Origin: an uncultured Verrucomicrobiota bacterium
GTDB taxonomy: Bacteria; Verrucomicrobiota; Verrucomicrobiia; Limisphaerales; Palsa-1400
Length of the DNA stretch: 57,107 nt
Reading direction: 5' to 3'
Assembly (NCBI GenBank): GCA_964558455.1
Contig: CAZLEE010000002.1
Coordinates: 1 to 57,107 of the forward strand
Made by a program: the position numbers and the translations under genes. A model generated the notes under the pieces. The model was not told the origin of the DNA, searched no databases, and was given only the letters and a program-made list of their open reading frames with translations. Shown here one piece after another: positions 10,880 through 50,638 of the stretch. The first letter of the stretch is position 1; each line of letters begins with the position of its first letter.

Positions 10880-10961
10880 TTGACGGTATGTTGCTTTCGT
10901 CTGTGGCGGAGTCAAAGACAATTTCCATTTTAAGAAGATTTGCCCCGGAGAACAATCTGCC

Positions 10962-19013: not shown

Positions 19014-19052
19014 GTTGGTGATTTTCGCGGGTTTAAGGGGTTGCTTGATTTC

Positions 19053-19859: not shown

Positions 19860-19879
19860 ATATCAACTAAGTTAATAAT

Positions 19880-20485
19880 CTAATGTTTTGGGGCCGCCGG
19901 AAAATGGCGCGCCACCATTTCCCCGGCCTCCTTCAACCATCCGGCGCGCTGCGGCGGCGTGCTGGCGATGACGGGCGTAAAGGTCCGGCGCTGCGCGTCG
20001 CGCACGCCGCAAAGCCCGAACACGCACTTCTTCCACAACCCCTCAAGCGGATCGCCGAAGACCCCGCGTGTGTTCTCCTCGGGGGTGTTGGCGGTGTTGA
20101 AAATAATGGCCGATTTGGCCTTGAGCAGCCCGAACGAAACGATCTCGCCTTTATCGTTGGGACCAAACCGGTAGGCAATTTCCGGGCGCAGCACCCGGTC
20201 GATCCAGCCCTTCAAAATCGCCGGAGGCATGTCCCACCAGTTTGGATGCACGATGATGATGCCGTCGGCGGCGGCTGTTTCCCGGCAATGTTGGGCGATG
20301 ACCGGATCCAGCTTCGCGTCCGTCTCAAACTCGGCGGTGGTAAGGAGCGCGGGGAAATTTTCCTGATAAAGATCATGCAACGCCGGAGTGTGGTTGTTCC
20401 GCGCCAGCGCTTCCATCGCCGCCTGGGCTATGGCGTGGTTGAAACTTTTCGGATTCGGATGGGCCAGGATGATGGAGATGTTCAT
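19880..20485 (-). CDS. Flavodoxin-like NAD(P)H:quinone oxidoreductase (MdaB/KefF family)
   Basis: ILAHPNPKSFNHAI, DLYQENF and IIIVHPNWWDMPPAILKGWIDRV. Confidence 0.92.
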   Translation of the reverse strand: MNISIILAHPNPKSFNHAIAQAAMEALARNNHTPALHDLYQENFPALLTTAEFETDAKLDPVIAQHCRETAAADGIIIVHPNWWDMPPAILKGWIDRVLRPEIAYRFGPNDKGEIVSFGLLKAKSAIIFNTANTPEENTRGVFGDPLEGLWKKCVFGLCGVRDAQRRTFTPVIASTPPQRAGWLKEAGEMVARHFPAAPKH

Positions 20486-20491
20486 TTACTG

Positions 20492-22384: not shown

Positions 22385-22390
22385 CGCGCG

Positions 22391-28634: not shown

Positions 28635-28698
28635 TTTCGCCTCTTTTCGGCAAATTCGCGCGTGACGGCTCCCAGTCTTGGTGTATTTTTACCGGACT

Positions 28699-29460
28699 GT
28701 GACGACCGCCGACGCCATCAAACTCCTGGAAGATTTTCGCGCAGGCAAAGTGGCCTTGCCCGCCGCGCTCCAAGCCTTTCAAGCCCCGCCCGTCATCGAC
28801 CTCGGCTTTGCCCAGGTCGATACTCATCGCGCCCTGCGCAAAGGTTTTGCCGAGGTCATCTATGGCGCCGGCAAGACCGGCCCGCAAATCGTCAAGATCG
28901 CCGCCGAGATTCTCAAGCGGGAAGACCGGCTCCTCATCACCCGCGTTTCCCCCAACCAGGCGCGTCTGGTGAAAAAAAAGTTCAAAACCGCCGTCGTCCA
29001 TGCTGTCGCCCGTTGCGTCACCATTGAAAAAAAATCCGGTCCCAAACGCCCCGGCACCATTGCCGTCATCTCCGCCGGAACGAGCGACCTGCCCATCGCG
29101 GAGGAAGCCGTGGTCACCGCCGAAATCATGGGGAACCGCGTGGAACGAATTTACGATGTGGGGGTGGCCGGGCTGCACCGGCTGCTGAACAAATTGGACG
29201 CCATCCGCCGCGCCCACGTCATCATTGTGGTCGCCGGGATGGAAGGCGCGTTGCCCAGCGTCGTGGCCGGGTTGGTCAGCCGGCCCGTCATCGCGGTGCC
29301 GACCAGTTCCGGTTATGGGGCCAACCTTGGGGGGTTGACTCCGTTGTTAAGCATGCTCAATAGTTGCGGCAGCGGCGTGACGGTGGTCAATATCGACAAC
29401 GGTTTTGGAGCCGGCTACGCGGCCAGCCAGATCAACGCCCTCAGTTCCGGTGGAATATGA
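28699..29460 (+). CDS. larB: Nickel-pincer cofactor biosynthesis protein LarB
   Basis: VDTHRALRKGFAEVIYGAGKT, SAGTSDLPIAEEA, DVGVAGLHRL, GMEGALPSVV and VVNIDNGFGA. GTG start preferred. Confidence 0.93.
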   Translation: MTTADAIKLLEDFRAGKVALPAALQAFQAPPVIDLGFAQVDTHRALRKGFAEVIYGAGKTGPQIVKIAAEILKREDRLLITRVSPNQARLVKKKFKTAVVHAVARCVTIEKKSGPKRPGTIAVISAGTSDLPIAEEAVVTAEIMGNRVERIYDVGVAGLHRLLNKLDAIRRAHVIIVVAGMEGALPSVVAGLVSRPVIAVPTSSGYGANLGGLTPLLSMLNSCGSGVTVVNIDNGFGAGYAASQINALSSGGI

Positions 29461-30728
29461 AAACACTTTATCTCGACCTTTTCAGCGGCATCAGCGGCGA
29501 CATGATGATGGGCGCCCTCCTGGATGTGGGGCTGGATTTCGACCATCTCACGAGCGAGTTGAACAAGCTGCACCTTGACGACTATCACCTCCATGTTTCC
29601 CGCGCCAAACGCGCCCAAATTGAAGGGGTGAAATTTGACGTCCACCTTGGCCATCATGCCGCCAAGAAAGACCACGAGCACGAACACGGCCATTCCCATC
29701 ATCACGAACATGAACACGAACACGGCGACGGGCACGAGCACGAGCACGGACGAAACCACGCTGAAATAAAACAACTCATCCAGAAAAGCGAACTCTCGGA
29801 ATGGGTGCGCGAAAAAGCGGTGGCCGTGTTCAACCGCGTGGCGGTGGCCGAGGGCAAAATTCACGGGCAATCGCCCGATGAGGTTCATTTTCACGAAGTC
29901 GGCGCGGTTGATTCTATTATTGACATCGTTGGAGCCTGCATCGGTCTGGAGTTTTTGGGCAAACCGCGCGTCCTGGCCAGCCAGCCGACGGAAGGCACCG
30001 GCTGGATTGATTGCGCGCACGGGCGTTTTCCCATTCCCGCCCCGGCCACCCTCGCCATCCTGGCCGCGCGCGGAGTGGCGTTGACCCAATGCGAAGTCCC
30101 CCATGAGCTGATCACCCCCACCGGCGCCGCCTTGCTGGCCGAGTTTGCGGGGGAATTCGGCCCGATGAGAAACTTCCGCCCGGACCGGATCGGCTTCGGA
30201 CTGGGCCTGCGCGACAACCCTACCCGCCCCAATGTCCTCCGCGCCATCCTTGGTCAGACCAGCGCCATCCTGGAACACGATTGGGAAAGCGACACCATCG
30301 CCGTCCTGGAAACAAATCTGGACGACGCCACCCCGGAAATTCTCGGCCAGTTCATGGAATCCGCCCTCGCCGCCGGCGCTCTGGATGTCACTTACGCGCC
30401 CGCGCACATGAAAAAAAACCGGCCCGGATTTCTATTGACAGTGCTTTGCGCGGAAGAGGACGCCGACAAATTCAGCGAAATGATCCTGCGCCACACCACC
30501 GCCTTCGGGGTTCGCCGCCATTTGGCGGAGCGGCGCAAATTGCGGCGCGAATTTCAGGTGGCGCGAACTTCCTTCGGGGATGTCACCATGAAAATCGGAC
30601 GGCTCGACGGCAATATTCTGCAAGCCGCGCCCGAATTTGAATCGTGCCGGAAATTGGCCAAACAAAAAAACCTGCCCTTAAGGCAGGTTTATGAGGCAGC
30701 CATCGCCGCCTGGAACAACGCGGGTTGA
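29457..30728 (+). CDS. larC: Nickel insertion protein LarC
   Basis: YLDLFSGISGDM, His-rich stretch, HFHEVGAVDSIIDI, ELITPTGAA, LETNLDD, MKKNRPG and APEFESC. ATGA overlap with larB. Confidence 0.93.
   Translation: MKTLYLDLFSGISGDMMMGALLDVGLDFDHLTSELNKLHLDDYHLHVSRAKRAQIEGVKFDVHLGHHAAKKDHEHEHGHSHHHEHEHEHGDGHEHEHGRNHAEIKQLIQKSELSEWVREKAVAVFNRVAVAEGKIHGQSPDEVHFHEVGAVDSIIDIVGACIGLEFLGKPRVLASQPTEGTGWIDCAHGRFPIPAPATLAILAARGVALTQCEVPHELITPTGAALLAEFAGEFGPMRNFRPDRIGFGLGLRDNPTRPNVLRAILGQTSAILEHDWESDTIAVLETNLDDATPEILGQFMESALAAGALDVTYAPAHMKKNRPGFLLTVLCAEEDADKFSEMILRHTTAFGVRRHLAERRKLRREFQVARTSFGDVTMKIGRLDGNILQAAPEFESCRKLAKQKNLPLRQVYEAAIAAWNNAG
29671..29750 (+). repeat. Hexamer (CACGAR) tandem repeat encoding the His/Glu tract of LarC
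   Basis: cacgagcacgaacac...cacgaacatgaacacgaacac...cacgagcacgagcac. Confidence 0.8.
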
Positions 30729-39730: not shown

Positions 39731-40384
39731 ATGTCTGACCTATTTCCAAAGTGGACCAATAATCTGCCGCGCAATATCATCATTGGCGCCCTTCTCGCCA
39801 GCACAGCCGTCACCGCCGGGGTCGGTTATTATTTCACGCCCAAATACACCCGGGCCGGTTACCAGCCGATTCAATCCGTCGCTTTCCCCCACGACGCGCA
39901 TGTGACCCAATTGGGACTCGATTGCCGTTACTGCCACAGCGGCGTCGAAAAGTCGTGGTATTCCAACATCCCCGCCACCTCGGTCTGCATGAATTGCCAC
40001 AACCAGGTGTTAAAAGATGACGAGCGACTGGCGGCGGTGCGGGAAAGCGCGGCCACGGGCAAACCGATCCCGTGGGTGCAGATTCATAAATTGCCGGACT
40101 ACGTCTATTTCAACCACGCCGTCCATGTGAACCGCGGCGTCAGTTGCGTCGAATGTCACGGCCAGATCAACCGCATGGATGAATCTTACCATGCCAAACC
40201 GTTGAGCATGTCTTTTTGTCTGGACTGCCATCGCGACCCCGCCCAACACCTGCGGGCGTTGGATAAAATCACCGATCTGGATTGGAAAGCGCCAAACGAG
40301 GACATGCAACGGGCCGGCGGACGGAAGCTCGCCCATGATTGGCATGTTCAATCGCTGCAAAATTGCTCGACCTGCCACCGATGA
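39731..40384 (+). CDS. actA: Alternative complex III pentaheme cytochrome c subunit
   Basis: N-terminal TM, QPIQSVAFPH and five CxxCH motifs (CRYCH, CMNCH, CVECH, CLDCH, CSTCH). Confidence 0.93.
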   Translation: MSDLFPKWTNNLPRNIIIGALLASTAVTAGVGYYFTPKYTRAGYQPIQSVAFPHDAHVTQLGLDCRYCHSGVEKSWYSNIPATSVCMNCHNQVLKDDERLAAVRESAATGKPIPWVQIHKLPDYVYFNHAVHVNRGVSCVECHGQINRMDESYHAKPLSMSFCLDCHRDPAQHLRALDKITDLDWKAPNEDMQRAGGRKLAHDWHVQSLQNCSTCHR

Positions 40385-43300
40385 AAACGATTCCTCCATC
40401 CTGTCCCGGGCCGGAAACAGGCCCGAGGTATTGGCGCAGTTTGGATCAACTGGCCAACACCCCGGAATTCCGCCAATGGGCGGAACGCGAATTTCCGGCC
40501 GGCGCGGATGACTTGAGGGACCCGCTTTCCCGCCGCAGTTTCGTCAAAATCATGTCGGCTTCTTTTCTGCTGGCCGGCTTGGGCGCGACCGGCTGCCGCC
40601 GCCCGGTTGAGAAGATTTATCCCTTTGCCAAAATGCCGGAGAATTACGTTCACGGCGTCCCGCAGTATTTTGCGACCGCCATGCCAACGCGCCGCACGGC
40701 CATCCCCCTGCTGGCAAAGTCCCACGAGGGCCGGCCCGTGAAAGTCGAGGGCAATCCCGATCATCCCGACAGCAACGGCGGCACCGATGCTCTGGCGCAA
40801 GCTTCCATTCTCGGTCTTTACGATCCGGATCGCGCCATGCGTTTCGCCCGCAATGGTTCGGGCGAAAGCCGCCAGGCTGCCTTGGACGCCCTGACCTTCA
40901 TTTCAAAAAACCTGGGGGATGGCGCCGGGCTGGCTTTTCTGCTCGAACAAAGCAGCTCCCCTTCCCGCTCGCGACTGCAACAGGCCATTTCTGAAAAATT
41001 TCCCAAGGCAAGCTGGCATATCTATGAGCCGGTCGATCTCGATTTGCCGCGTCGAGCCGCGTCGCTCAGTCACAACAGCCCGGTCGGGCCTTTTTACAAG
41101 CTGGACGAGGCGTCGGTGATTCTTGCCCTGGACTGCGATTTTATCGGCAGCGAGGAAAATTCTGTCAATAACATCCGCCGCTTCGCCCAAGGCCGTCATT
41201 TGGACGGCAGGAAAAGCCCGATGAGCCGGTTGTACGCGGTGGAAAGTCTTTTCACCCTGACCGGCGCCAACGCCGACCATCGTTTGCGCGTCGCTCCCAG
41301 CCTGCTCGTCCCGCTGCTGGCCCGTCTGGCGCTCAACATTCTGGATCCGTCCGACATGGATTCGCAATTGAATGAGCTGGCCGCCCCGGCCCAGGCCCAT
41401 GACGACTGGATTATTCCCTGCGCCACGGACCTCAAAGCCCATCCCGGCAAAAGCCTGGTCATGGGCGGCTACCGTCTGCCGCCCGCCGCGCATTTGCTGG
41501 TGGCGGCAATGAACGAGGCGCTGGGATCTGTCAATCATACTCTCGAATACCATCCGGTTCAGTCGTCCGCGGAAGGGACGATTGCCGAGTTGGCCGGCGC
41601 GCTCAACGCCGGACAGGTTCAAACCCTGGTCATTCTCGGCGGCAATCCCGCCTACAACGCGCCCGTTGACTTGAACTGGCCGCAAGCGCAAGCCAAAGCG
41701 GGAATGGTTATCCGCCTCGGTAACTACGAAGACGAAACTTCATGGAACGCCGCCTTGCACCCCGACCGTCAATGGGATTTGCCGGCGGCCCATTATCTCG
41801 AAGCCTGGGACGACGCCCGCACCGCAGACGGCTCCGTCGTGCCAATTCAGCCGCTGATTGAACCCTTGTTTGGCGGTTTGACCGAATTGGAGGTGCTCGC
41901 CACCATCGGCGGCCTTTCCCCAACCAGCCCGTATGAAATCGTCCGTCAAACCCATCGCAAAATGAGCGGGGACGACGAAAACAGTTGGCGAAAATTTCTG
42001 CATGACGGTTTTCTGGCCGGCAGCGCGTCGGCAAAAGCGGTGGTGCAATATGATCCGGCGGCGTTGGGGCAGGCATTGGATCAGATCAAATCAGATGGTT
42101 CCGTAGCGACCAGCGCCAGGCTGGATGTGATTTTTTACCGGGATGCGAAGGTGGACGACGGACGCTACAACAACAACGGCTGGTTGCAGGAATTGCCCGA
42201 TCCGGTGACAAAATTGACTTGGGACAACGCCGTTTTGATCAGCCCGAAAACCGCCAGGGACCTGGGTGTTTTCACGGAACGTCTTCGTCAGAGCCAGCAG
42301 TTTTTCAATTGCGTCGTCGAAATCAAACTGGGTGGCCGCTCCATTCGCGGCCCGGTTTGGGTACAGCCCGGCATGGCCGACAACACCGTCGGACTGGCCT
42401 TGGGCTACGGACGACAAAAAACCGGACGGGTCGGCGCCGGCACGGGTTTCAATGCTTATGCCATCCGCGGCAGCAACGCGCTCCATTACGCATCCGGGGC
42501 CGAACTGGTCAAAATCAGCGGCACGAGCTACGAACTGGCCAACACCCAAAGCCACTGGCACATGGAGGGCCGCCCGATCGTGCGCGAAGCCAATCTGGAT
42601 CAGTTCCGGCGGGACCCGGCCTTTGCCAAAAGGATGCGGCCGGAATTGCCGGCCAACTCCGGCTCGCTTTATCCCAATCCGCTGGATGAGACGAAAAAAA
42701 ACGCCCTGCATCAATGGGGCATGTCGATTGATTTAAACCGGTGCGTTGGCTGCTCCGCCTGCATGATCGCCTGCCAAAGCGAAAACAATATCCCGATTGT
42801 GGGCAAGGATATGGTCGGCAAAAGCCGTGAAATGCACTGGATCCGCATTGACCGCTATTACGCCGGACCGGAAAAAAATCCGGACGAGGAACCGCAAGCC
42901 GTTATGCAGCCAATGCTCTGCCAGCACTGCGAAATGGCTCCTTGCGAAAGTGTTTGCCCGGTCAACGCCACCTCGCACGACGACGAGGGTTTGAACGTCA
43001 TGACCTACAACCGGTGCGTCGGCACGCGCTATTGTTCAAACAACTGCCCGTATAAGGTCCGGCGTTTCAATTTTTTCGATTACAACCGCCGCCCGCTCAA
43101 TCATCTTTACCAAAGCCCGCTCGTCATGACCACGGACGGCGAATGGGAACTGTGGCGCTGGCTCAAGAACCCGGACAAAGGCAATCTGCCGGAAGACGAA
43201 TGGCAACTGGCCCGGCTGGTGAAAAACCCGGATGTCACCGTCCGCATGCGCGGCGTCATGGAAAAATGCAGCTTCTGCTTGCAGCGCATCGAGCAGGCCA

Positions 43301-43644
43301 GGATCGCCCAAAAAATCAAGGCGCGCGACAGCGACAATATCCGCCTTTCGGAAAAAGACGGAACCATCCCCCGGACCGCCTGCCAGCAAGCCTGCCCGGC
43401 GGAGGCGATCCTTTTTGGCGACATTTCCGATCCTGAGAGCCAGGTGAGCAAGGCCAAGAAACAGGAACGCGACTACGCCGTCCTGGAATTTCTTCTGACC
43501 AAGCCGCGCACCACTTACCTGGCAAAAGTCCGCAATCCCAACCAGGAAATGCCGGACTACAAACGGCATTCCATGCCTTATACGACCGAAGAATTCAAGA
43601 GAGCGGGCGGCGCTTCTGTTGAAAGCGGGAAAGGCCCTCTCTAA
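40381..43644 (+). CDS. actB: Alternative complex III subunit B (molybdopterin-oxidoreductase-like fold plus Fe-S domain, Tat)
   Basis: [68 protein letters not shown] and MEKCSFC. Confidence 0.95.
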
Positions 43645-45131
43645 TGGATCATTTCCCCGCCAGTTCATTGGTAGTGGATGAGCCGAAATTGCGGGTGCAG
43701 GCGCCGCCGCCGGCGTTGGAGCGCGCGCCGTTGGTAAACAACCTTCGCAGCCCCGGCTGGATTTCCGACCGGATTGCCAGCGTCATTGAGGGCGGGACGC
43801 CGGGTTGGTGGAAAATCAGTTTCGGCATCAGTGTGACCCTTATGACCCTTTGCTTCGCGATGGTTCTCTGGCTCATGTCCACCGGCGTCGGCCTCTGGGG
43901 CAATCAACATCCGATGATGTGGGGCTGGGCGATTATCAACTTCGTCTGGTGGATCGGCATCGGCCACGCCGGGACGTTGATTTCGTCCATCTTGTTTCTG
44001 CTTCGCCAGCGCTGGCGCACGTCCATCAACCGCACGGCCGAGGCCATGACCATTTTTGCCGTGGTGTGCGCAGGCCTGTTCCCGCTCATTCACATCGGGC
44101 GGATTTGGCTGGGTTGGTGGTTGTTGTCCTTTCCCAACTCGAACAATATCTGGCCGCAATTCCGTTCGCCGCTGATGTGGGACGTGTTTGCCGTCTCGAC
44201 CTATTTCACCGTGTCGGTGCTCTTCTGGTACATGGGATTGATCCCCGACCTGGCGGTTATGCGGGACCGGGCCAAAACCAAAATACGGAAATTCGCCTAC
44301 GGACTGTTCTCGTTGGGCTGGACCGGATCCACCCGCCATTGGAGCAATTACGAAAAAGCCTATCTGATTCTGGCCGGCCTTTCCACGGTGTTGGTGCTGT
44401 CGGTTCATTCCATCGTGTCGCTGGACTTCTCCGTTTCGCAGCTTCCGGGCTGGCACACCACCATTTTCCCGCCCTACTTCGTCGCCGGCGCGGTCTATTC
44501 CGGCTTCGGCATGGTGCTGACACTGCTGATTCCCTTGCGCCGGCTGCTCAAACTCGAGGATATCATCACCGTCCGGCATGTGGATTTGATGTGCAAAATC
44601 GCCCTGACCACCGGCTCCATTGTCGGTTACGCCTACTGCATGGAATTTTTCATCGCTTGGTATGGCGGCAATCCTAACGAAAAGTTCATGTTCTTCCACA
44701 ATCGCGCGGCGGACCCGTTCATTTTCGGCCCGCTCCTCGGCATCCAGCCCGCTCCTTATTGGTGGGCTTTCTGGACCATGGTTTTCTGCAACGTCGTCGT
44801 GCCGCAATTTTTCTGGTTCAAAAAAATCCGGTCCGGCCTGTGGTTCGTTTTCGGGTTGGCGATCCTGATTAACGTCGGCATGTGGTTCGAACGTTTTGTC
44901 ATCGTCATCACTTCCTTGCAACGGGATTTTCTCCCGTCCAACTGGAGTGATTACAGCCCGACATTCGTGGACGTCCTGCAATTTCTTGGGACGTTCGGAT
45001 TGTTCTTCACCCTGTTCCTGCTCTTCCTGCGTTTCGTGCCGTTAATCGCCATCGCCGAAGTCAAGGGCGTCACCCCGCAGGCTGATCCTCATCATCCGCT
45101 CGGCGGCGCAAAAATAGGAGGGAAACTCTGA
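43644..45131 (+). CDS. actC: Alternative complex III subunit C (NrfD/PsrC family, quinol-binding)
   Basis: [45 protein letters not shown] and [11 protein letters not shown]. Confidence 0.95.
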
Positions 45132-45661
45132 TGCCGGGGGTTTACGCAATCATGGCGGAATTCGAGACGCCCGCAGCCACGCTGCACGCCGCCGAAAAAG
45201 TGTATGACGCGGGTTTCCGCGACTGGGACGTTTTCACCCCCTATCCCGTTCACGGCATGGACCAGGCCATGGGCATTAAAAATTCCAAGGTCGGATGGTT
45301 TACCTTTATTGGCGGTTGCGCCGGCTACCTGACGGGCATGTTGATGATTTGGTTCATGAACGCGGTGGATTACCGCATTATCATCGGCGGCAAACCGATG
45401 TTCAGCCCGTTCGCCGCCTTCCCGCCGTCTTACGAATTGGCCATCTTGTTTGGCTCCTTTGGCGCCTTGCTTGGCATGCTCTTTTTGAACCGCCTGCCCC
45501 GCCTGCATCATCCGCTGCTCAAAAACGCCCGGTTCGCCCTCGCCACCCACGACCGCTTTTTCCTCGTGATTGAAACCGGCGACGCCAAATTCTCCGATCT
45601 CGAAACCCGCCGTCTGCTCGAATCCCTCGGCAGCCGGCACATCGAATGGGTGGAGGAATAA
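45131..45661 (+). CDS. actD: Alternative complex III subunit D (DUF3341)
   Basis: AEFETP, DVFTPYPVHG, IIGGKP, PPSYELAILF and DRFFLVI. Confidence 0.93.
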   Translation: MPGVYAIMAEFETPAATLHAAEKVYDAGFRDWDVFTPYPVHGMDQAMGIKNSKVGWFTFIGGCAGYLTGMLMIWFMNAVDYRIIIGGKPMFSPFAAFPPSYELAILFGSFGALLGMLFLNRLPRLHHPLLKNARFALATHDRFFLVIETGDAKFSDLETRRLLESLGSRHIEWVEE

Positions 45662-46305
45662 TGCGTTACTTTCTGCTCCTTTTTCTTTTAAGCATTATCA
45701 CCGTGGTGGAGATTTGCGGGTTTCAGGGCAGCCGCAGCCGCCGGCCCCCCATTGAATTATTCCCGGACATGGTTCGACAAAACAAAGTCAGGCCCCAAAC
45801 AGCCGGCGATTTCTTTGCCGACCAGCTTTCCTCGCGCCCGATCCCGGCCGGAACGATCCCGCGCCAGCCGGCCATCGTCATCAACGGCCAGTTGGTTTAT
45901 CCCTATGAGGATTCGCCCGTCAATACCGGCAAAATCCCAGGCACGACCAATTTCATCGCCATCAACCCCCTGCCCCCGACCCGCCAATTGCTTGATCGCG
46001 GCCAGAAGCGGTATCAAATCAATTGTCTGCCCTGCCATGGACCGCTGGGCGACGGTCGGGGGATCACGAGCAAATACAACATGTTTTCCATGGCCAATTT
46101 TCACGACCAACGGCTGGTGGACATGCCGGACGGCGAAATTTTTGACACCATCACCCACGGCAAGAATTTGATGGGATCCTATGGCGCTCACCTGACCATC
46201 GAAGAGCGCTGGGCCATTATTTATTACGTGCGCGCGCTGGAAAGAAGCCAGTTAGGCTCCGTCGGGGACGTGCCGGAACCGGAACGCGCCCAATTCAAAA
46301 AATAA
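45661..46305 (+). CDS. actE: Alternative complex III subunit E (monoheme cytochrome c)
   Basis: PDMVRQ, RGQKRYQINCLPCHG, ITHGKNLMGSY and ERWAII. Confidence 0.92.
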   Translation: MRYFLLLFLLSIITVVEICGFQGSRSRRPPIELFPDMVRQNKVRPQTAGDFFADQLSSRPIPAGTIPRQPAIVINGQLVYPYEDSPVNTGKIPGTTNFIAINPLPPTRQLLDRGQKRYQINCLPCHGPLGDGRGITSKYNMFSMANFHDQRLVDMPDGEIFDTITHGKNLMGSYGAHLTIEERWAIIYYVRALERSQLGSVGDVPEPERAQFKK

Positions 46306-46308
46306 GTT

Positions 46309-47562
46309 ATGAGTTTGGATAAATATACGCCGCAGACCGCGCCGCTGGATGTTTCCAGATGGCGCAATTTGCCGGTGATACTGATCGTCGCGGGGGCGAT
46401 TGGCGTTTTTGGCGGGGTGGCCTTGAGCGGTGACCCTGTCCGGCAATTTGCCTTTTCTTGGCTTCTGGGATTCATGTTTTGTTTGAGTTTTGGGTTGGGC
46501 GGTTTTTTCCTGGTCATGATTCACCATCTGGTGGACGCCAGTTGGTCCGTCCCCATCCGGCGCGTGACTGAAACGCTTGCCTGCCTGTTGTGCCCGGCCA
46601 TGTTGATTTTGTTCCTGCCCGTGGCCTTCCTCGCGCCCAAAATCTATCCGTGGCTTCGCCCGTCCGAACAAATGCATCCGAACCATGCGCTCGCCTCCAA
46701 ATATCCCCTTTTCACTGCTCTGGGATTTTATATCACGGCGGCGGTGCTGTTCGCGGTGTGGTGGATTTTTACCAGCGCCCTGCGCCGTTGGTCGGTGAAA
46801 CAAGACGAAACCGGCGCGGCCGAATGCACGTACAAAATGCGGTTTTATTCGTGCCTCGGCATCGTTTTTTTTGCCTTCACTGTGACGATGGCCTCGGTCA
46901 TGTGGATGAAGGGTTTGATGGATGAATGGTATTCGACCGTGTATGGAGTCTGTTATTTCGCCGCGTCCGTCTGGACGACGCTGCCCACGGTCTATCTGAT
47001 TGTGCTGGTCTTGCAGCGCGCGGGGGTTTTGAGAGGCGTGGTCAGCGGCAAGACGTACTACTTCATGGGTTCTCTGTTCTTCGCCTTCACCGTTTTCTGG
47101 GCCTACGTCAATTTCATCCAGTATTTCGTCATCTGGAACGCCAACATGCCCGAGGAAACCTTCTGGTACCTGGCGCGCGAAACTGGAACATGGAAGCACG
47201 TCGGGCAATACGTGATTATTTTCGGACATTTTTTCATTCCGTTCCTGATGCTGCTGCGCATTGATTTTAAGTTGAAGTTGTCGGTCATGTTCCCGCTCGC
47301 CGTCTGGGCGTGGTTGATGCATTTTGTGGACATTGAGTTCCAAATCATGCCGGTCTTGCACAAACAATCCATTCTCACACCGGGACTTTTGTCCGACGCA
47401 GGATGCGTCTTGTTGATGGCTGGCATTTTGGCCAGGACTTTCGTCGTTTCGTTCAGCCGTCACGCGCCCTATCCGCAGAGGGACCCCCGCATGGCTGAAT
47501 CTCTGGGCATTTACGTTCCCTCTTCCTCTGACCTTTCAACCGCATCGGAGCGCGCCAAATGA
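46309..47562 (+). CDS. actF: Alternative complex III subunit F
   Basis: About 10 TM segments, WSVPIRR, WYSTVYG, FWAYVNFIQYFVIWNANMPEET and HFFIPF. Confidence 0.92.
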   Translation: MSLDKYTPQTAPLDVSRWRNLPVILIVAGAIGVFGGVALSGDPVRQFAFSWLLGFMFCLSFGLGGFFLVMIHHLVDASWSVPIRRVTETLACLLCPAMLILFLPVAFLAPKIYPWLRPSEQMHPNHALASKYPLFTALGFYITAAVLFAVWWIFTSALRRWSVKQDETGAAECTYKMRFYSCLGIVFFAFTVTMASVMWMKGLMDEWYSTVYGVCYFAASVWTTLPTVYLIVLVLQRAGVLRGVVSGKTYYFMGSLFFAFTVFWAYVNFIQYFVIWNANMPEETFWYLARETGTWKHVGQYVIIFGHFFIPFLMLLRIDFKLKLSVMFPLAVWAWLMHFVDIEFQIMPVLHKQSILTPGLLSDAGCVLLMAGILARTFVVSFSRHAPYPQRDPRMAESLGIYVPSSSDLSTASERAK

Positions 47563-47936
47563 GACTGGAATCCCGCCATGCCAATCCGCAAACCGCCGTC
47601 AATGTCGCGGCCATTCTGGCGGCGTTCCTGGTCATGGGTTTTCTGGTCGCCCTGATGCGGCACTACACCGCGACGCCGTCTCTCGCCCAGACGCGCGGGG
47701 CGGAGCGCATGAAAATCCTGGCGGACTTCAAAGCCGCCAACGAACCGTTCCTGGAAAAATACGATTGGCAGGACAAGGATAGGGGCATAATCCACATTCC
47801 GATCACGCGCGCCAAAGATCTGGTTTTGGAGGAGTGGCAGAATCCGGCCGCGGGTCGTTCCAATTTGATTGAACGGGCCGCCAAAGCCTTTGCCCCCCTG
47901 CCCAAGCCGGCCCCGGTGAAGAATGAATATGAATAG
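47559..47936 (+). CDS. actG: ActG-like single-TM subunit
   Basis: One TM followed by YDWQDKDRGIIHIPITRAKDL, matching the recalled ActG Y-W-D...G...IPI-RA motif. Overlaps actF by 4 nt. Confidence 0.75.
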   Translation: MRLESRHANPQTAVNVAAILAAFLVMGFLVALMRHYTATPSLAQTRGAERMKILADFKAANEPFLEKYDWQDKDRGIIHIPITRAKDLVLEEWQNPAAGRSNLIERAAKAFAPLPKPAPVKNEYE

Positions 47937-49353
47937 ACGGTGCCAGCCGATTCCACGGACCGAAATTGATGCGTCGTGCTCCGTTCCGCTGCTCAGTCTT
48001 TTGGGCGGCGGACTTCTCTGGCTTTTGATTGGATGCATTTTCGCCCTCATCGCCTCCCTCAAATTTCACGCCCCCCATTTCCTGGCCAATGACGCCCACT
48101 GGACCTATGGTCGCATCCACGCCGCTCATTTAACCGCCCTGCTCTACGGTTTCGCCCTGCCGTCCGCGCTTGGGGTCGGATTGTGGCTGCTCTGCCGGCT
48201 TGGACGCATGCGGCTGGCCGGTCTGGCGGTGATTTTTATCGGAGCCGTCCTTTGGAATCTTTCCGTGGCCGTCGGCGTGGCCGGTATTCTGTGCGGCGAC
48301 GGCGACGGCTACGAGAGTTTTGAGATGCCGCGCTACGTGACAGCGACTTTATTTGTCTCCTACTTGTTGATCGCAACCTGTGGTGTCCTGACCTTTCACC
48401 GTCGCCGGGAGGACACGCTCTACCCCTCCCAATGGTTTGTCTTAGGCTCGCTGTTTTGGTTTCCATGGATTTTCAGCACCGCGTCCGCCCTGTTGCTCTG
48501 CCATCCGGCGCGCGGGGTCATGCAGGCGTCCATCGCATGGTGGTTCGCCAATAATCTCAGTTACATCGTGCTTGGCTTTACCGGTTTGGCCTCCATTTTT
48601 TACTTTGTGCCAAAGTTGTTGGGCCGCCCTTTGCACAGCACCCGCCTGGCGATTTTCGCCTTTTGGGGACTGGCGCTATTCGGCAGCCTGGGCGGCGTTC
48701 CAGACGGCGCTCCGCTTCCCGCATGGATGGTCAGTCTTTCCATGGTTGGCACCGTTCTGACGGCCATCCCGGTTCTGGCCGTGATCCTCAATCTCTATCA
48801 AACCGCCCGCAACGACACTCGTGCCCTCGATACCGACACCACCCTGCGCTTCACCTACGTGGCGTTGATTTTCTGGCTGATTGCCAACGTGCAACGCATC
48901 GTCGGCGTGTTGCCGGACGTGAGCGGGTTGACCAATTACACCTGGTATCCGGTGGCGCAGTGGGAACTTTTCCATTGCGGCTTTTTCGCCTTTGCCATCT
49001 TCGGCGCGATTTATTTCATCGTGCCGCGCCTGTTGAACGGGTCGGATGATTTGCCTGTCTGGTCGCCCCGTCTGATCCAATGGCATTTCGGGACCATGCT
49101 GGCAGGCGTCTTGATTTCCTATCTGGCGCTGCTTGTGGCCGGCATCGGACAGGGTTATTTTCTGGGCAATCCGGATTATACCTTCACCCAAATCATGACC
49201 GGCACATTGATTCCATTGCGCGCCGGCACAACCGGCGACCTGCTGTTTATCATTGGCGTGATTATTTTTCTCTTGAACTTCGCCTTGCTCCTCAGGCAAT
49301 GCCGCCATGGCCGGACTGAAAAAGCCGTTGCGCAACGAAAGGAGCGCGCATGA
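47923..49353 (+). CDS. cbb3-type oxidase subunit I (CcoN) homologue lacking active-site ligands
   Basis: About 12 TM segments with CcoN landmarks (TYGR..AH, LYPSQWF, AWW, YFVPK..GRPLHS.RL, LPAW, IYFIVPR, WHF). The His ligands are replaced (see findings). Confidence 0.85.
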   Translation: MNMNRRCQPIPRTEIDASCSVPLLSLLGGGLLWLLIGCIFALIASLKFHAPHFLANDAHWTYGRIHAAHLTALLYGFALPSALGVGLWLLCRLGRMRLAGLAVIFIGAVLWNLSVAVGVAGILCGDGDGYESFEMPRYVTATLFVSYLLIATCGVLTFHRRREDTLYPSQWFVLGSLFWFPWIFSTASALLLCHPARGVMQASIAWWFANNLSYIVLGFTGLASIFYFVPKLLGRPLHSTRLAIFAFWGLALFGSLGGVPDGAPLPAWMVSLSMVGTVLTAIPVLAVILNLYQTARNDTRALDTDTTLRFTYVALIFWLIANVQRIVGVLPDVSGLTNYTWYPVAQWELFHCGFFAFAIFGAIYFIVPRLLNGSDDLPVWSPRLIQWHFGTMLAGVLISYLALLVAGIGQGYFLGNPDYTFTQIMTGTLIPLRAGTTGDLLFIIGVIIFLLNFALLLRQCRHGRTEKAVAQRKERA

Positions 49354-50024
49354 ACAACGGACCCGTGGTTTTTCTCGCTCTGTTTGTGGCCATGGCCGGC
49401 TCATGGCTCGCTTTCGTGATGGGGCCGGAATTGCAAATCGGCGCAACCCGCCCGACAACCAGTATTGTGGCCGGCATGACCGACGAAATCTATCCCAACG
49501 CCAAACCCGGCGCGGCCCGCCAGGGCGCCGAGGTCTATCGCGCCAACGGCTGCGTCGCCTGCCATACGCAGCAAGTCCAACCGGCGGCGCTCGGGCCGGA
49601 TATTAATCGCGGTTGGGGCGTGCGCCGCAGCACCGCCTACGATTATCTTTTTGAGTCACCGCTCCAGCTTGGGACGCAACGAATCGGTCCCGATCTGGCC
49701 AATGCGGGCCGGCGCATGGATGCCAACTCCATCCTTGTGCGCCTTTACGAACCGCGCGCCATCACGCCCCGCTCCATCATGCCGCCTTATCCCTATTTGT
49801 TTGAAAATCACAAGATCACAGGGATTCCGTCCCCGGACGCTTTGCAATTGCCCGCCGGCTTTACTCCGCCAACTGGTTGCGAAATCATTCCGTTGCCCGA
49901 GGCGCGCGCTTTGGCCGCGTATGTGACAAGCCTGCATCAGGACGGCTATCTTTACGAAGCGCCGCCGCCGGTCGAAAAAACAAACGGACCGCCACCCACC
50001 GCGAAAATTTCACCCGCGAAATGA
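49350..50024 (+). CDS. ccoO: cbb3-type subunit II (CcoO/FixO) monoheme cytochrome c
   Basis: N-terminal TM, GAEVYRANGCVACHTQQV, GTQRIGPDLAN and PRSIMPPYPYLF. Confidence 0.9.
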   Translation: MNNGPVVFLALFVAMAGSWLAFVMGPELQIGATRPTTSIVAGMTDEIYPNAKPGAARQGAEVYRANGCVACHTQQVQPAALGPDINRGWGVRRSTAYDYLFESPLQLGTQRIGPDLANAGRRMDANSILVRLYEPRAITPRSIMPPYPYLFENHKITGIPSPDALQLPAGFTPPTGCEIIPLPEARALAAYVTSLHQDGYLYEAPPPVEKTNGPPPTAKISPAK

Positions 50025-50638
50025 GCCTGAACCCGAAAAGAAATCCGGTGCCCGGCGAACCGGCCGAGCCGGTCGGCGGCGATGGCGCGATTTCAATCTG
50101 GCTGATTGCGGCCCTTGGCGTCCTGTTTTGTTGGGGACAATTTTATCTGGGCAGACACGCCGGCGGATTTGAACGGGCGGTCTATTATCCCTACCGGAGC
50201 CTGCGCGAGGTGGCTGCGGCCAATCCGCGCAATAAAGGCGACAGGGTCATTGCCATGGGCCGGGATGTCTTCACCAAGACCTGTTCCGTCTGTCATCAAC
50301 CCAACGGTATGGGCAAGCCCGGAACCGCTCCGCCCCTGGCCGGTTCCGAATGGGTGCTCGCTCCCGGCCCGAACCGGATTGCGCATGCCATCTTAAACGG
50401 ATTAACCGGCCCCATAATCGTCCAGGGTAAAGATTGGAATCTGACCATGGTGCCGTGGAAAGATGTCTATGACGACGAGCATCTCGCCGCCACTTTGACC
50501 TACATTCGCAATTCCTGGGGCAACAAAGCCCCGCCCGTGAAACCGGAGGAAATCGCCGCCGCCCGCAAAGACATTCATCCCGGCCCGGAAACCGCGCCTG
50601 AAATAACGTCCATGCCGGAAAAATTGCCCGGCATGTAA
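50021..50638 (+). CDS. Membrane-anchored monoheme cytochrome c
   Basis: TM segment, GRDVFTKTCSVCHQPNGMG, APPLAGSEWV and MVPW. ATGA overlap with ccoO. Confidence 0.9.
   Translation: MSLNPKRNPVPGEPAEPVGGDGAISIWLIAALGVLFCWGQFYLGRHAGGFERAVYYPYRSLREVAAANPRNKGDRVIAMGRDVFTKTCSVCHQPNGMGKPGTAPPLAGSEWVLAPGPNRIAHAILNGLTGPIIVQGKDWNLTMVPWKDVYDDEHLAATLTYIRNSWGNKAPPVKPEEIAAARKDIHPGPETAPEITSMPEKLPGM

What the first reader, a model, noticed from the sequence alone, without database searches (positions are those of the whole stretch)
47923..49353. CcoN-like subunit stripped of its binuclear O2-reduction centre (pseudo-oxidase)
I aligned this protein by eye to the recalled Pseudomonas stutzeri CcoN sequence. 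WWYGHN becomes WWFANN (CuB His207 to N210), and WAGPHH becomes LGGVPD (His257/258 to P260/D261). The cross-linked Tyr251 becomes G254. WTIGHVH becomes YPVAQWE, so the heme b3 ligand His345 becomes Q346 and the heme b ligand His347 becomes E348. The K-channel-equivalent residues T215, Y223, S240 and H243 become G, F, A and A. Despite this, the ORF is full length (476 aa), intact, and overlaps its neighbours on both sides, which suggests it is maintained for a function other than O2 or NO reduction. Automated pipelines would probably label it a cbb3 oxidase. I cannot say whether this family has been described.
Basis: partly seen in the sequence, partly recalled or inferred. Interest (0 to 1): 0.88.

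Follow-up and report, generated by a model that had tools for sequence, protein, structure and literature searches.

The report
Cofactor-less cbb3 oxidase subunit on ACIII
This intact, conserved gene encodes a copy of the catalytic subunit of a cbb3-type oxygen reductase that has lost the residues holding its hemes and copper, so it cannot respire oxygen, yet databases label it a cbb3 oxidase.

Summary
ORF 47923-49353 encodes a 476-aa, 12-helix homologue of CcoN. Formal alignments give His207->N210, Tyr251->G254, His257/258->P260/gap, His345->Q346 and His347->E348. Only the His60 equivalent (H69) survives, and it is not conserved in relatives.

The gene is the eighth of ten co-oriented genes, the last four linked by overlapping start and stop codons: ActABCDEF (alternative complex III), a 125-aa single-helix protein, the CcoN-like protein, a CcoO-like monoheme cytochrome c and a 205-aa monoheme cytochrome c. 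All 78 related Verrucomicrobiota loci show this order as far as each contig reaches, and none keeps the ligand set. dN/dS is about 0.15, similar to ActF and the CcoO-like gene. Both partner cytochromes keep CxxCH almost everywhere.

Ligand-complete relatives exist (Telmatocola, Opitutaceae TAV1, both linked to ACIII). They carry a CcoS-like maturation gene that the ligand-less loci lack. On the ACIII backbone tree the ligand-complete TAV1 operon nests among ligand-less ones, which implies repeated independent losses.

Best reading: a non-catalytic descendant of a cbb3 subunit, kept as the membrane scaffold for the cytochrome c exit module of ACIII. I found no published description. Annotation as "cbb3 oxidase" overstates the predicted high-affinity oxygen respiration of these bacteria.

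The parts
39731..40384 (+). ActA, pentaheme cytochrome c of alternative complex III
   Evidence: It has five CxxCH motifs and one N-terminal hydrophobic helix. It matches the Pfam Cytochrome_C7/c3 families and is QrcA-like.
40339..43644 (+). ActB, a fusion of a molybdopterin-like domain and an Fe-S subunit (the listed ORF starts at TTG; the true start is probably later)
   Evidence: It has 4Fe-4S dicluster domains, is QrcC/QrcB-like, and carries the TAT-variant signal TIGR04519 at residues 29-70.
43644..45131 (+). ActC, NrfD-like quinol-interacting membrane subunit
   Evidence: Pfam NrfD at 3.6e-21. It is the most conserved gene of the operon, with a median dN/dS of 0.05.
45131..45661 (+). ActD
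   Evidence: Pfam ActD PF11821 at 3e-63.
45646..46305 (+). ActE, monoheme cytochrome c
   Evidence: One CxxCH motif and Pfam Cytochrome_CBB3.
46309..47562 (+). ActF, second NrfD-like membrane subunit
   Evidence: It has no Pfam hit. It sits in the conserved position in all loci and shows weak homology to ActC (E 1e-4).
47559..47936 (+). p125, a single-helix membrane protein with an (I/V)(R/H)(I/L)P(I/V) motif
   Evidence: It matches no family. Homologues lie in the same position in 73 loci, including the ligand-complete operon of TAV1 (111 aa). The Telmatocola protein in that position (153 aa) shares the motif but was matched by tblastn only weakly and in few loci.
47923..49353 (+). CcoN-like protein without cofactor ligands (the finding)
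   Evidence: Searches show a 12-helix heme-copper oxidase fold, closest to cbb3 CcoN, with five of six His ligands and the cross-linked Tyr replaced.
48127..48129 (+). Codon H69, equivalent to heme b ligand His60. It is the only canonical ligand kept.
   Evidence: This site is H in only 9 of 75 family members.
48550..48552 (+). Codon N210, at the CuB His207 site
   Evidence: Across the family this site is H21/G16/N13/Q8/A7.
48682..48702 (+). Codons G254 to P260, replacing Tyr251 and His257/His258 (LFGSLGGVP versus canonical FLYIWAGPHH)
   Evidence: In the family the sites are G59/A9/S4 at Tyr251, P57 at His257, and a gap in 63 at His258.
48958..48966 (+). Codons Q346-W347-E348, replacing His345 (heme b3) and His347 (heme b)
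49350..50024 (+). CcoO/FixO-like membrane-anchored monoheme cytochrome c
   Evidence: Pfam FixO at 5.9e-20. It has CVACH at residue 68 and an N-terminal helix. CxxCH is kept in all loci except one truncated ORF.
50021..50638 (+). 205-aa membrane-anchored monoheme cytochrome c, in the place of CcoP
   Evidence: The start comes from the gene calls on the 98.5%-identical contig L079. It has CSVCH and one helix, and CxxCH is kept in every locus where this gene was found.

Best explanation
The gene encodes a cofactor-less, non-catalytic descendant of CcoN, the catalytic subunit of a cbb3-type oxidase. The ancestral oxidase belonged to a Planctomycetota/Verrucomicrobiota-type variant (CcoN + CcoO + one monoheme cytochrome c) that is encoded directly behind alternative complex III.

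Shown:
- The 12-helix fold is kept.
- The ligands for heme b, heme b3 and CuB, the cross-linked Tyr, and the Arg/His residues that I recall as heme-propionate partners are gone.
- The CcoS-like maturation gene is absent from the locus.
- The gene is under purifying selection.
- It is translationally coupled to two cytochromes c that keep their heme-attachment motifs.

Inferred:
- The protein no longer reduces O2 or NO.
- It survives as the membrane scaffold that folds, anchors and positions the CcoO-like and 205-aa cytochromes c next to ACIII. The complex would then work as a menaquinol:cytochrome c oxidoreductase with an extended heme-c exit wire: ActA (5 hemes), then ActE, then CcoO-like and the cytochrome c.
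- That wire would hand electrons to a separate terminal oxidase or reductase encoded elsewhere.

My confidence that the protein is non-catalytic and maintained is about 0.9. My confidence in the scaffold or exit-module role specifically is about 0.5.
For: **Homology and fold**
- Pfam COX1 scores 143 bits.
- The family profile matches cbb3 CcoN at 1.6e-39 and NorB only at 4.6e-4.
- The AlphaFold2 model has pLDDT 88.5 and 12 helices.
- Foldseek gives TM 0.86-0.88 and rmsd 2.2-2.6 A to 9g6b_A, 3mk7_A and 8smr_E.

**Ligand loss**
- See for this protein.
- The loss is family-wide in 78 loci and in 144 of the 150 top representatives.
- Thirty positions are at least 90% conserved in ligand-complete relatives but under 30% kept in the ligand-less group. 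They include all six His, Y251, R57, H337, R437, Y317 and S240. They also include glycines near the ligand histidines that are bulky residues here: G211->Y214, G349->F350, G324->R325 and G441->D439.
- No new conserved His, Met, Cys or Lys appears. The residues conserved in the ligand-less group (H49, FWFxWIF, R197, Q201 and others) are already conserved in the ligand-complete clade.

**Selection**
- dN/dS is 0.14 against a 98.5%-identical contig.
- The median over 27 pairs is 0.145, compared with ActF 0.11, CcoO-like 0.14 and p125 0.20.

**Context**
- The ten-gene order is conserved in every locus with enough flank.
- The junctions are ATGA overlaps.
- CxxCH is retained in both partner cytochromes.

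**Ancestry**
- Telmatocola and Opitutaceae TAV1 have the same operon with a ligand-complete CcoN plus a CcoS/FixS-like gene. Telmatocola also has a CcoI-like ATPase.
- A CcoS-like ORF was found only beside ligand-complete CcoN, never in the 78 ligand-less loci or in the window. No CcoI-like ATPase or SCO1 homologue was found there either.

**Repeated retention**
- On the ActC+ActD+ActF tree, TAV1 (complete) pairs with ligand-less L065 at 100% bootstrap, inside a set of ligand-less operons.
- In that pair ActC is 90% identical but CcoN only 39%.

**From memory, not checked here**
- A Rhodobacter capsulatus ccoS mutant assembles a cbb3 complex that lacks its b hemes and copper (Koch et al. 2000). 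This would show that apo-CcoN can fold and hold CcoO and CcoP.
Against: - There is no direct evidence of complex formation, expression or cofactor content.
- Conservation is not clearly concentrated on the periplasmic face where the cytochromes would dock. Mean conservation is 0.58 in periplasmic loops, 0.57 in helices and 0.49 in cytoplasmic loops.
- I could not show that these genomes carry another terminal oxidase to accept the electrons. The window has none.
- CcoN-like::CcoO-like fusion proteins exist, but each is known from a single contig. A 1-nt error at the ATGA overlap could create them.
- All trees are neighbour-joining trees built on MAG sequences.
Confidence: 0.6

Rival explanations
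1. The protein is still a redox enzyme. It would bind heme or a metal through non-canonical ligands, for example H69 plus another residue, or the conserved H49, and catalyse a reaction other than O2 or NO reduction.
For: - H69, the His60 equivalent, is kept in this protein.
- The Ca-site glutamate E122 is kept as E131, and it is E or D in 60 of 75 members.
- Heme-copper oxidases with altered ligation are known: His/Met in nNOR, His/Lys in some eNOR and Asp for His in gNOR (PMC11214002).
Against: - H69 is not conserved (9 of 75).
- H49 is the only His conserved in the family. It is equally conserved in the ligand-complete relatives, so it is not a replacement ligand.
- No Met, Cys, Lys or Tyr becomes conserved at or near the former sites, which are highly variable.
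- R57, R437 and H337, which I recall as heme-propionate partners, are lost, and neighbouring glycines are replaced by bulky residues.
- No CcoS-like gene is present at the locus.
Confidence: 0.08
2. The protein is a proton- or ion-conducting element, or a conformational coupling element, recruited by ACIII. It would have no redox centre of its own, in the manner of the antiporter-like subunits of complex I.
For: - Whether and how ACIII translocates protons is unresolved (PMC5928083; PMC8498564).
- The protein is a large polytopic membrane protein under purifying selection and is encoded with ACIII.
Against: - The residues of the cbb3 proton pathway that are conserved in ligand-complete relatives (T215, Y223, S240, Y317) are replaced here by G, F, A and W, and they vary across the family.
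- No new conserved chain of polar or charged intramembrane residues appears.
Confidence: 0.1
3. The gene is a relic on its way to being lost, with no function of its own. It would be carried along because it sits in the middle of an essential operon.
For: - The ligand-less proteins evolve faster than the ligand-complete ones. Mean pairwise distance is 1.30 against 0.50, though the sampling is uneven.
- CcoN-like identity falls well below ActC identity in the same operon pairs.
- Sporadic partial losses occur inside the ligand-complete clade.
Against: - dN/dS is about 0.15, like the neighbouring functional genes.
- The reading frame is full length in 74 of 78 loci spanning several orders. The exceptions are contig ends or long-read MAGs whose loci show frameshifts in other operon genes as well.
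- 59 positions are at least 88% conserved.
- The model is a confident 12-helix fold.
- In the parallel losses the gene was kept every time rather than deleted.
Confidence: 0.05
4. The protein is an alternative, inactive isoform that competes with a catalytic CcoN paralogue for the CcoO and cytochrome c subunits. It would act as a regulator of oxidase activity, comparable to the subunit swapping of orphan CcoN subunits in Pseudomonas aeruginosa.
For: - A stand-alone ligand-complete ccoN-ccoO-cytochrome c module, with a CcoS-like ORF and a P-type ATPase, exists in a 'Verrucomicrobia subdivision 3' MAG.
- Orphan CcoN subunits that form heterocomplexes are documented in P. aeruginosa (bioRxiv 10.1101/171538, listed; I did not read it in detail).
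Against: - The ligand-less gene has its own dedicated CcoO-like and cytochrome c genes, translationally coupled to it.
- It is fixed in an ACIII operon rather than being an orphan.
- Co-occurrence of both kinds in one genome was not shown.
Confidence: 0.05

Closest known systems
CcoN, subunit I of cbb3-type (C-family) heme-copper oxidases (P. stutzeri 3MK7/5DJQ; also 9G6B, 8SMR, 6XKW)
   Same: - The 12-helix fold matches at TM 0.87.
- It is the best sequence and profile match.
- The neighbouring gene is a CcoO/FixO-type monoheme subunit.
- Many structural Gly, Pro and Trp positions are shared (28 of the 59 conserved positions).
   Different: - Five of six metal and heme His ligands are absent here, and all six at family level. 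The cross-linked Tyr is also absent.
- The protein scores 126 bits against the 583-bit cutoff of TIGR00780.
- Identity is 20-22%.
- The third subunit is a monoheme cytochrome c rather than diheme CcoP.
- No ccoGHIS genes lie nearby.
ACIII-linked, ligand-complete cbb3 modules of Planctomycetota and Verrucomicrobiota (Telmatocola sphagniphila WP_213498146.1; Opitutaceae bacterium TAV1). The adjacency of ACIII and a C-type oxidase is noted for Opitutaceae and verrucomicrobial methanotrophs in PMC8498564, citing Refojo et al. 2010.
   Same: - The operon order is the same: ActA-F, a small single-helix protein, CcoN, CcoO, a monoheme cytochrome c.
- They fall in the same clade, with 100% bootstrap against proteobacterial CcoN.
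- They share clade signature residues: H49, FWFxW, R197, Q201 and P264.
   Different: - These relatives keep the full HHYHHHH ligand set and have a CcoS/FixS-like gene. Telmatocola also has a CcoI-like ATPase.
- They are 37-40% identical to the window protein.
ACIII-aa3/caa3 supercomplexes (Flavobacterium johnsoniae, Rhodothermus marinus)
   Same: ACIII is encoded next to, and physically associated with, a heme-copper oxidase, and c-type hemes pass electrons directly between the two (PMC5928083).
   Different: In those cases the partner is an active A-family oxidase. Here the partner subunit I has no redox centres, and association with ACIII is inferred only from gene order.
Divergent heme-copper families with altered active sites (gNOR, eNOR, sNOR, nNOR, NOD, the putative N2O reductase; PMC11214002)
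   Same: They are members of the same superfamily that have abandoned O2 reduction and lack the active-site Tyr.
   Different: Those families keep both hemes and a metal site. At most one active-site His is replaced (gNOR), and that was described as the first such case. This family keeps none of the six as a conserved residue.

Membership tests
C-family heme-copper oxidase subunit I (CcoN, cbb3-type cytochrome c oxidase) | 12-transmembrane-helix subunit I fold, with CcoN as the closest relative | tested here: met
   - Pfam COX1 at 1.6e-41.
- Profile against PDB: CcoN at 1.6e-39, NorB at 4.6e-4.
- AlphaFold2 pLDDT 88.5.
- Foldseek TM 0.86-0.88 to CcoN chains.
C-family heme-copper oxidase subunit I (CcoN, cbb3-type cytochrome c oxidase) | Six invariant histidines: heme b His60 and His347, heme b3 His345, and CuB His207, His257 and His258 | tested here: not met
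   - In this protein: H69 kept, then N210, P260, a gap or D261, Q346 and E348.
- None of the six is conserved across 75 family members.
C-family heme-copper oxidase subunit I (CcoN, cbb3-type cytochrome c oxidase) | Cross-linked active-site tyrosine (Tyr251, helix VII) | tested here: not met
   It is G254 here. In the family the site is G59/A9/S4/T2/N1, with no Tyr in any of 75 members.
C-family heme-copper oxidase subunit I (CcoN, cbb3-type cytochrome c oxidase) | Polar residues of the single cytoplasmic proton pathway (T215, Y223, S240, Y317) | tested here: not met
   They are G218, F226, A243 and W318 here. They are conserved in the ligand-complete relatives of the clade but variable in the ligand-less group.
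C-family heme-copper oxidase subunit I (CcoN, cbb3-type cytochrome c oxidase) | Curated equivalog score (NCBIfam TIGR00780 ccoN, cutoff 583 bits) | tested here: not met
   126.3 bits.
C-family heme-copper oxidase subunit I (CcoN, cbb3-type cytochrome c oxidase) | Adjacent CcoO monoheme subunit with an intact heme c site | tested here: met
   - Pfam FixO at 5.9e-20.
- CVACH present.
- CxxCH conserved across loci.
C-family heme-copper oxidase subunit I (CcoN, cbb3-type cytochrome c oxidase) | Cofactor-insertion genes (ccoS/fixS, ccoI/fixI) associated with the locus | tested here: not met
   tblastn found no hit in the 57-kb window or within 10 kb on either side in the 78 ligand-less loci, wherever the contigs reach that far. 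Hits occur only beside ligand-complete CcoN in L082, L087 and L088. The genes could still lie elsewhere in the genome.
C-family heme-copper oxidase subunit I (CcoN, cbb3-type cytochrome c oxidase) | Cytochrome c:O2 oxidoreductase activity; heme b, heme b3 and Cu content | not testable with these tools
   This needs biochemistry on a purified complex.
PVC-type ACIII-linked CcoN-CcoO-monoheme cytochrome c module (no formal name) | Gene order ActABCDEF, small single-helix protein, CcoN, CcoO, monoheme cytochrome c | tested here: met
   The order is present in the window, in all 78 loci as far as the contigs reach, and in Telmatocola and TAV1.
PVC-type ACIII-linked CcoN-CcoO-monoheme cytochrome c module (no formal name) | Clade membership and shared signature residues | tested here: met
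   The clade has 100% bootstrap against proteobacterial CcoN. H49, P51, Y75, G76, W88, FWFxW, A187, R197, Q201, P264 and F354 are shared with ligand-complete members.
Nitric oxide reductase NorB (cNOR/qNOR) | Heme b and b3 ligands, plus three His and a Glu for FeB | tested here: not met
   The same histidine positions are missing. The profile match to NorB is only 4.6e-4.
Alternative complex III (ActABCDEF), as the operon the gene belongs to | Pentaheme ActA, Fe-S/molybdopterin-like ActB, NrfD-like ActC and ActF, ActD, and monoheme ActE in one cluster | tested here: met
   - Pfam and NCBIfam hits.
- Heme motif counts.
- Weak ActC-ActF homology.
Pseudoenzyme (a catalytically dead homologue maintained by selection) | Catalytic and cofactor residues lost, with the fold kept and purifying selection acting | tested here: met
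   loss; fold; dN/dS about 0.15.

The most novel reading that the evidence does not exclude
Verrucomicrobiota have turned the catalytic subunit of a heme-copper oxidase into a cofactor-free structural subunit of an ACIII-cytochrome c megacomplex. They did so repeatedly and independently, at least three times on the operon backbone tree.

This would be the first heme-copper oxidase family with no redox centre. It would also be a natural experiment showing that the subunit I polypeptide is needed for assembly or electron exit even when O2 reduction has been given up.

A stronger version, which my evidence does not exclude, is that the emptied cavities have taken on a new job, such as binding quinone or lipid or gating ACIII.
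Probability: 0.45. Interest if true: 0.85.

Novelty: new variant of a known kind. Interest (0 to 1): 0.75.

Why it matters
**For bioenergetics.** The six histidines of subunit I are treated as the defining invariant of the heme-copper superfamily. A large, selected family that keeps the fold but none of the ligands shows the scaffold has a value apart from catalysis. It offers a natural apo-CcoN for studying the assembly of cbb3-type complexes and their docking to ACIII.

**For evolution.** Loss of the ligands appears to have happened repeatedly in parallel, and the gene was retained each time. That is an unusually clean case of pseudoenzyme formation inside a respiratory supercomplex.

**For microbial ecology.** These genes are named "cbb3-type cytochrome c oxidase subunit I" by JGI and NCBI, and they pass Pfam COX1. 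Genome-based studies often read ccoN as a marker of high-affinity, microaerobic respiration. For many soil, peat, lake and groundwater Verrucomicrobiota that inference would be wrong. A ligand check, or the TIGR00780 cutoff, would correct it.

Tried and rejected
1. **Docking-face test.** I asked whether conservation concentrates on the periplasmic face where the cytochromes would dock. The result was inconclusive: 0.58 in periplasmic loops, 0.57 in helices and 0.49 in cytoplasmic loops. The most conserved parts are TM5 and loop 5-6.

2. **'Family-specific' motifs.** I first took H49, FWFxWIF, R197 and Q201 as signs of a new function. I rejected this because they are equally conserved in the ligand-complete relatives.

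3. **CcoN-only tree.** I used it to decide between one loss and several. Monophyly of the ligand-less group has only 56% bootstrap, and long branches make the tree unreliable. The ACIII backbone tree was more informative.

4. **Fusion proteins.** I considered CcoN-like::CcoO-like fusions as Rosetta-stone evidence of association. They are single-contig clusters, and a 1-nt error at the ATGA overlap could produce them.

5. **P0168 as an evolutionary intermediate.** This Opitutales protein (pattern HHAQYHH) turned out to be a rare degenerate member of an otherwise ligand-complete clade, in which 114 of 120 members have the full set.

6. **Literature.** Nine full-text searches found no description of a ligand-less CcoN. 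Refojo et al. 2010, the source for ACIII/C-type oxidase adjacency, is not held, so I cannot exclude that it mentions this.

7. **Another oxidase or copper-delivery genes in the window.** I found none.

8. **A slow script.** I redid both with lighter code.
Full report
**1. The observation**

ORF 47923-49353 on the + strand is intact and encodes 476 aa. It matches Pfam COX1 at 143 bits. It reaches only 126 bits on the NCBIfam ccoN equivalog TIGR00780, whose cutoff is 583.

phmmer against all PDB chains aligns it end to end with cbb3 CcoN subunits (9g83_t, 6xkw_n, 9g6b_A, 3mk7_A, 8smr_E; E 5e-22 to 2e-16). The printed alignments pair WWYGHN with WWFANN, AGPHHLHY with GGVP--DG, and WTIGHVH with YPVAQWE. 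A profile of 39 family members gives the same pairing at E 1.6e-39. NorB matches only at 4.6e-4.

With P. stutzeri numbering taken from that alignment, MAFFT gives the following:

| P. stutzeri residue | Role | Window residue |
|---|---|---|
| H60 | heme b ligand | H69 |
| H207 | CuB ligand | N210 |
| Y251 | cross-linked Tyr | G254 |
| H257 | CuB ligand | P260 |
| H258 | CuB ligand | gap |
| H345 | heme b3 ligand | Q346 |
| H347 | heme b ligand | E348 |
| T215 | proton pathway | G218 |
| Y223 | proton pathway | F226 |
| S240 | proton pathway | A243 |
| H243 | proton pathway | A246 |

Two of the 'proton-channel losses' (H243, and also E323) are not conserved even in the functional relatives of this clade.

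The gene overlaps its upstream neighbour by 14 nt. It overlaps the downstream gene through an ATGA junction, and the gene after that is joined the same way.

**2. Fold**

An AlphaFold2 model built on the family alignment is confident (mean pLDDT 88.5, pTM 0.89) and has twelve long helices. Foldseek against the PDB returns cbb3 CcoN chains first (TM 0.86-0.88, rmsd 2.2-2.6 A, 20-22% identity). NorB comes next, then the A- and B-family subunits I. The protein is a structurally complete subunit I of the C family.

**3. Context**

The gene is the eighth of ten co-oriented, tightly packed genes:

- ActA, with five CxxCH motifs
- ActB, an Fe-S/molybdopterin-like protein with a TAT-variant signal
- ActC, NrfD-like
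- ActD (PF11821)
- ActE, with one CxxCH motif
- ActF
- a 125-aa single-helix protein (p125)
- the CcoN-like protein
- a CcoO/FixO-like monoheme cytochrome c
- a 205-aa membrane-anchored monoheme cytochrome c

This is an alternative complex III operon followed by what looks like a three-subunit cbb3 module. The operon encodes eight c-type heme sites and the Fe-S clusters of ActB. The CcoN-like protein contributes no recognisable cofactor site.

The rest of the 57-kb window is ordinary chromosome: fumarase, a HemN-like radical SAM protein, ETF/ETF-QO, LarB/LarC, peptidase M20, and shikimate and chorismate enzymes. It has no other oxidase and no copper-handling genes.

**4. The family**

A search of 5.8 billion proteins found at least 369 relatives at 54-99% identity. 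Nearly all come from Verrucomicrobiota MAGs, and those that carry a name are called 'cbb3-type cytochrome c oxidase subunit I'.

A scan of one genome per species returned 78 loci, down to 31% identity. Their record titles place them in Limisphaerales and Pedosphaera, Verrucomicrobiales, Opitutaceae, Roseibacillus, Rubritalea and Chthoniobacteraceae. The ten-gene order is present in every locus, as far as each contig extends.

None of the 78 homologues keeps the ligand set. The Tyr251 site is G, A or S. The His257/258 site is P plus a deletion in most members. The heme sites are Q, L, H, E, D, T and others. The His207 and His60 sites are variable.

An exhaustive HMMER search of 1.84 billion representatives found 460 clusters at E<=1e-30. 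Of the top 150, 144 have two or fewer of the six histidines.

By contrast, the heme-attachment motif CxxCH is kept in the CcoO-like protein in every locus where the gene was found except one truncated ORF. It is also kept in the downstream cytochrome c in every locus where that gene was found.

**5. Selection**

Against a 98.5%-identical metagenome contig, the gene shows 16 synonymous and 7 non-synonymous codon changes (NG86 dN/dS 0.14).

Over 27 locus pairs with dS of about 1 or less, median dN/dS values are as follows:

| Gene | Median dN/dS |
|---|---|
| ActC | 0.05 |
| ActD | 0.06 |
| ActF | 0.11 |
| ActE | 0.14 |
| CcoO-like | 0.14 |
| CcoN-like | 0.145 |
| p125 | 0.20 |

Fifty-nine positions are at least 88% conserved across 75 sequences. 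The gene is maintained, not decaying.

**6. Where it came from**

Four of the top 150 representatives have all six His plus the Tyr. They include the CcoN of Telmatocola sphagniphila (Planctomycetota) and a Burkholderiales group.

The Telmatocola locus reads ActA, ActB, ActCD, ActE, ActF, a 153-aa protein, FixS/CcoS, CcoN, FixO, cytochrome c, then a P-type ATPase.

An Opitutales protein with a partial set (P0168, pattern HHAQYHH) is also ACIII-linked. Of the 120 proteins listed in the search with P0168, 114 are ligand-complete. One of these is from the cultured Opitutaceae bacterium TAV1. Its locus reads ActABCDEF, a 111-aa p125 homologue, an 81-aa CcoS-like protein, CcoN, FixO, cytochrome c.

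A 'subdivision 3' MAG has a stand-alone ligand-complete module with a P-type ATPase and a CcoS-like ORF.

The literature already records that ACIII sits next to a C-type oxidase in Opitutaceae and verrucomicrobial methanotrophs (PMC8498564; PMC6688271).

The ancestral state was therefore a genuine ACIII-cbb3 operon. This PVC-type clade, which uses a monoheme third subunit, separates from proteobacterial CcoN with 100% bootstrap.

**7. What exactly was lost**

I compared 15 ligand-complete members of the clade with 28 ligand-less ones. Thirty positions are at least 90% conserved in the former and under 30% kept in the latter. They are:

- the six His and Y251
- R57, H337 and R437, which I recall as partners of the heme propionates
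- Y317 and S240 of the proton path
- several glycines close to the ligand histidines that are bulky residues in the window protein (G211->Y214, G349->F350, G324->R325, G441->D439), which would fit cavity filling

Conversely, the residues I first took for family-specific novelties are equally conserved in the ligand-complete relatives. These include H49, P51, Y75, G76, W88, FWFxWIF, R197, Q201 and P264. So there is no sign of a new active site. What is conserved is the old scaffold minus its cofactor sites.

The Ca-site glutamate (E122) is still E or D in 60 of 75 members.

At the locus level, a CcoS/FixS-like ORF is found only beside ligand-complete CcoN (L082, L087, L088). It is not found in the window or the 78 ligand-less loci. 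No CcoI-like ATPase or SCO1 homologue lies within 10 kb of the ligand-less loci.

**8. One loss or many**

The CcoN tree nests the ligand-less sequences inside the PVC clade on long branches. Their monophyly has only 56% support. Each ligand-less lineage is as similar to ligand-complete verrucomicrobial CcoN (35-49%) as to ligand-less proteins of other orders (28-42%).

The operon backbone is clearer. In an ActC+ActD+ActF tree of 61 operons rooted on Telmatocola, ligand-complete TAV1 pairs with ligand-less Opitutaceae locus L065 at 100% bootstrap. The partial L083 joins them at 100%. This Opitutales group sits among ligand-less operons.

TAV1 and L065 share 90% identity in ActC and 60% in CcoO, but only 39% in CcoN.

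Regaining seven residues is implausible. The simplest reading is therefore at least three independent losses, each followed by fast divergence and each time with the gene retained. Replacement of CcoN by recombination is the alternative and was not excluded. These are neighbour-joining trees on MAG data and need confirmation.

**9. Mechanism**

Without ligands for heme b, heme b3 and CuB, and without the Tyr, the protein cannot carry out O2 or NO reduction as any known heme-copper enzyme does. I hold this with about 0.9 confidence.

Several facts point to a structural role: retention under purifying selection, translational coupling to two cytochromes c that keep their heme sites, the fixed position behind ACIII, and repeated retention after independent losses. 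The protein would be the membrane platform that folds and positions the CcoO-like and 205-aa cytochromes beside ACIII. This would extend the ActA-ActE heme wire into an exit module that serves a separate terminal enzyme. I hold this with about 0.5 confidence.

From memory, a ccoS mutant of Rhodobacter capsulatus assembles a cbb3 complex devoid of its b hemes and copper. That would be a precedent for a stable apo-CcoN complex. I did not verify it here.

The evidence is indirect. The conservation pattern does not single out a docking face. Fusion proteins may be artefacts. I could not check the rest of these genomes for the presumed electron acceptor.

The rival readings are non-canonical cofactor binding, an ion-conducting or coupling role, a functionless relic, and a regulatory decoy. 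They are listed with their evidence in the Rival explanations section.

**10. Novelty**

Nine full-text searches found no description of a CcoN homologue without ligands. Genome papers on Verrucomicrobiota list ACIII and a cbb3-type oxidase among the respiratory complexes without comment on ligands. I did not check whether the genes those papers refer to belong to the ligand-less family. Refojo et al. 2010 could not be read.

I classify the finding as a new variant of a known kind: a pseudoenzyme branch of the C-family oxidases inside the known ACIII-oxidase gene arrangement.

The practical consequence is that 'ccoN present' should not be read as high-affinity O2 respiration in these lineages.

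Noticed in passing
Loci L005, L025, L032, L035, L039, L042, L046, L047; protein P0403: Public MAG contigs that carry this verrucomicrobial ACIII/CcoN-like operon are labelled Saccharimonadales, Baltobacteraceae, Bifidobacterium, Akkermansia muciniphila and Bordetella. A related ligand-complete CcoN cluster (P0403) is labelled Limnocylindria. These are probably binning or labelling errors.
   Followed up: no
Proteins P0337, P0313, P0322, P0358, P0373, P0168 (relatives of the Opitutales CcoN): Within the otherwise ligand-complete Opitutales clade, 6 of 120 clusters show partial ligand substitutions: HHTHHHH, HHNHHHH, HHSQHHH, HHSTHHH, KNGHHHL and HHAQYHH. This could be ongoing independent decay or sequence errors.
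   Followed up: partly
Proteins P0122, P0125, P0135, P0175, P0252, P0235: These are single polypeptides of 666-842 aa that join a ligand-less CcoN-like part to a CcoO-like part with CxxCH. The three whose clusters I looked up (P0122, P0125, P0135) each come from one contig. They may be real fusions or 1-nt errors at the ATGA gene overlap.
   Followed up: partly
window 47559-47936 (p125); L087 9360-9695; L082 9240-9701; L083 5491-5787: A small single-helix protein with a conserved (I/V)(R/H)(I/L)P(I/V)...A..L motif always precedes CcoN in these ACIII operons, whether ligand-complete or ligand-less. It matches no Pfam or NCBIfam family. It may be an unrecognised subunit of the ACIII-cbb3 assembly.
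   Followed up: partly
L085 (Diaphorobacter limosus CP136921.1) and L086: Ligand-complete members of the same CcoN clade occur outside the PVC group. An example is in Burkholderiales, as CcoN, FixO and a monoheme cytochrome c next to SCO1 and hemCDXY, without ACIII. This cbb3 subtype has a monoheme third subunit instead of diheme CcoP.
   Followed up: no
Loci L011, L016, L057, L072, L078 (long-read MFD MAGs): tblastn matches are split into several frames in several operon genes, not only in the CcoN-like gene. This suggests indel errors in these assemblies rather than pseudogenes.
   Followed up: no
window 28678-30728: Adjacent LarB-like (AIR carboxylase family) and LarC-like (nickel insertion protein, 4e-139) genes suggest synthesis of the nickel-pincer cofactor.
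   Followed up: no
window 17976-24589 (- strand): A cluster of ETF alpha and beta subunits, a flavodoxin-like protein, a 630-aa ETF-QO-like Fe-S protein and a 732-aa acyl-CoA dehydrogenase suggests a route feeding electrons from acyl-CoA oxidation into the quinone pool, upstream of ACIII.
   Followed up: no
window 2119-7431 and 8555-10993: There is a 1770-aa protein with PATR (autotransporter passenger) repeats, and two ceramidase-like ORFs on opposite strands.
   Followed up: no
window 40339-40384: The listed ActB ORF starts at a TTG that overlaps ActA by 46 nt. The TAT-variant signal lies at residues 29-70, so the true start is probably further downstream.
   Followed up: no
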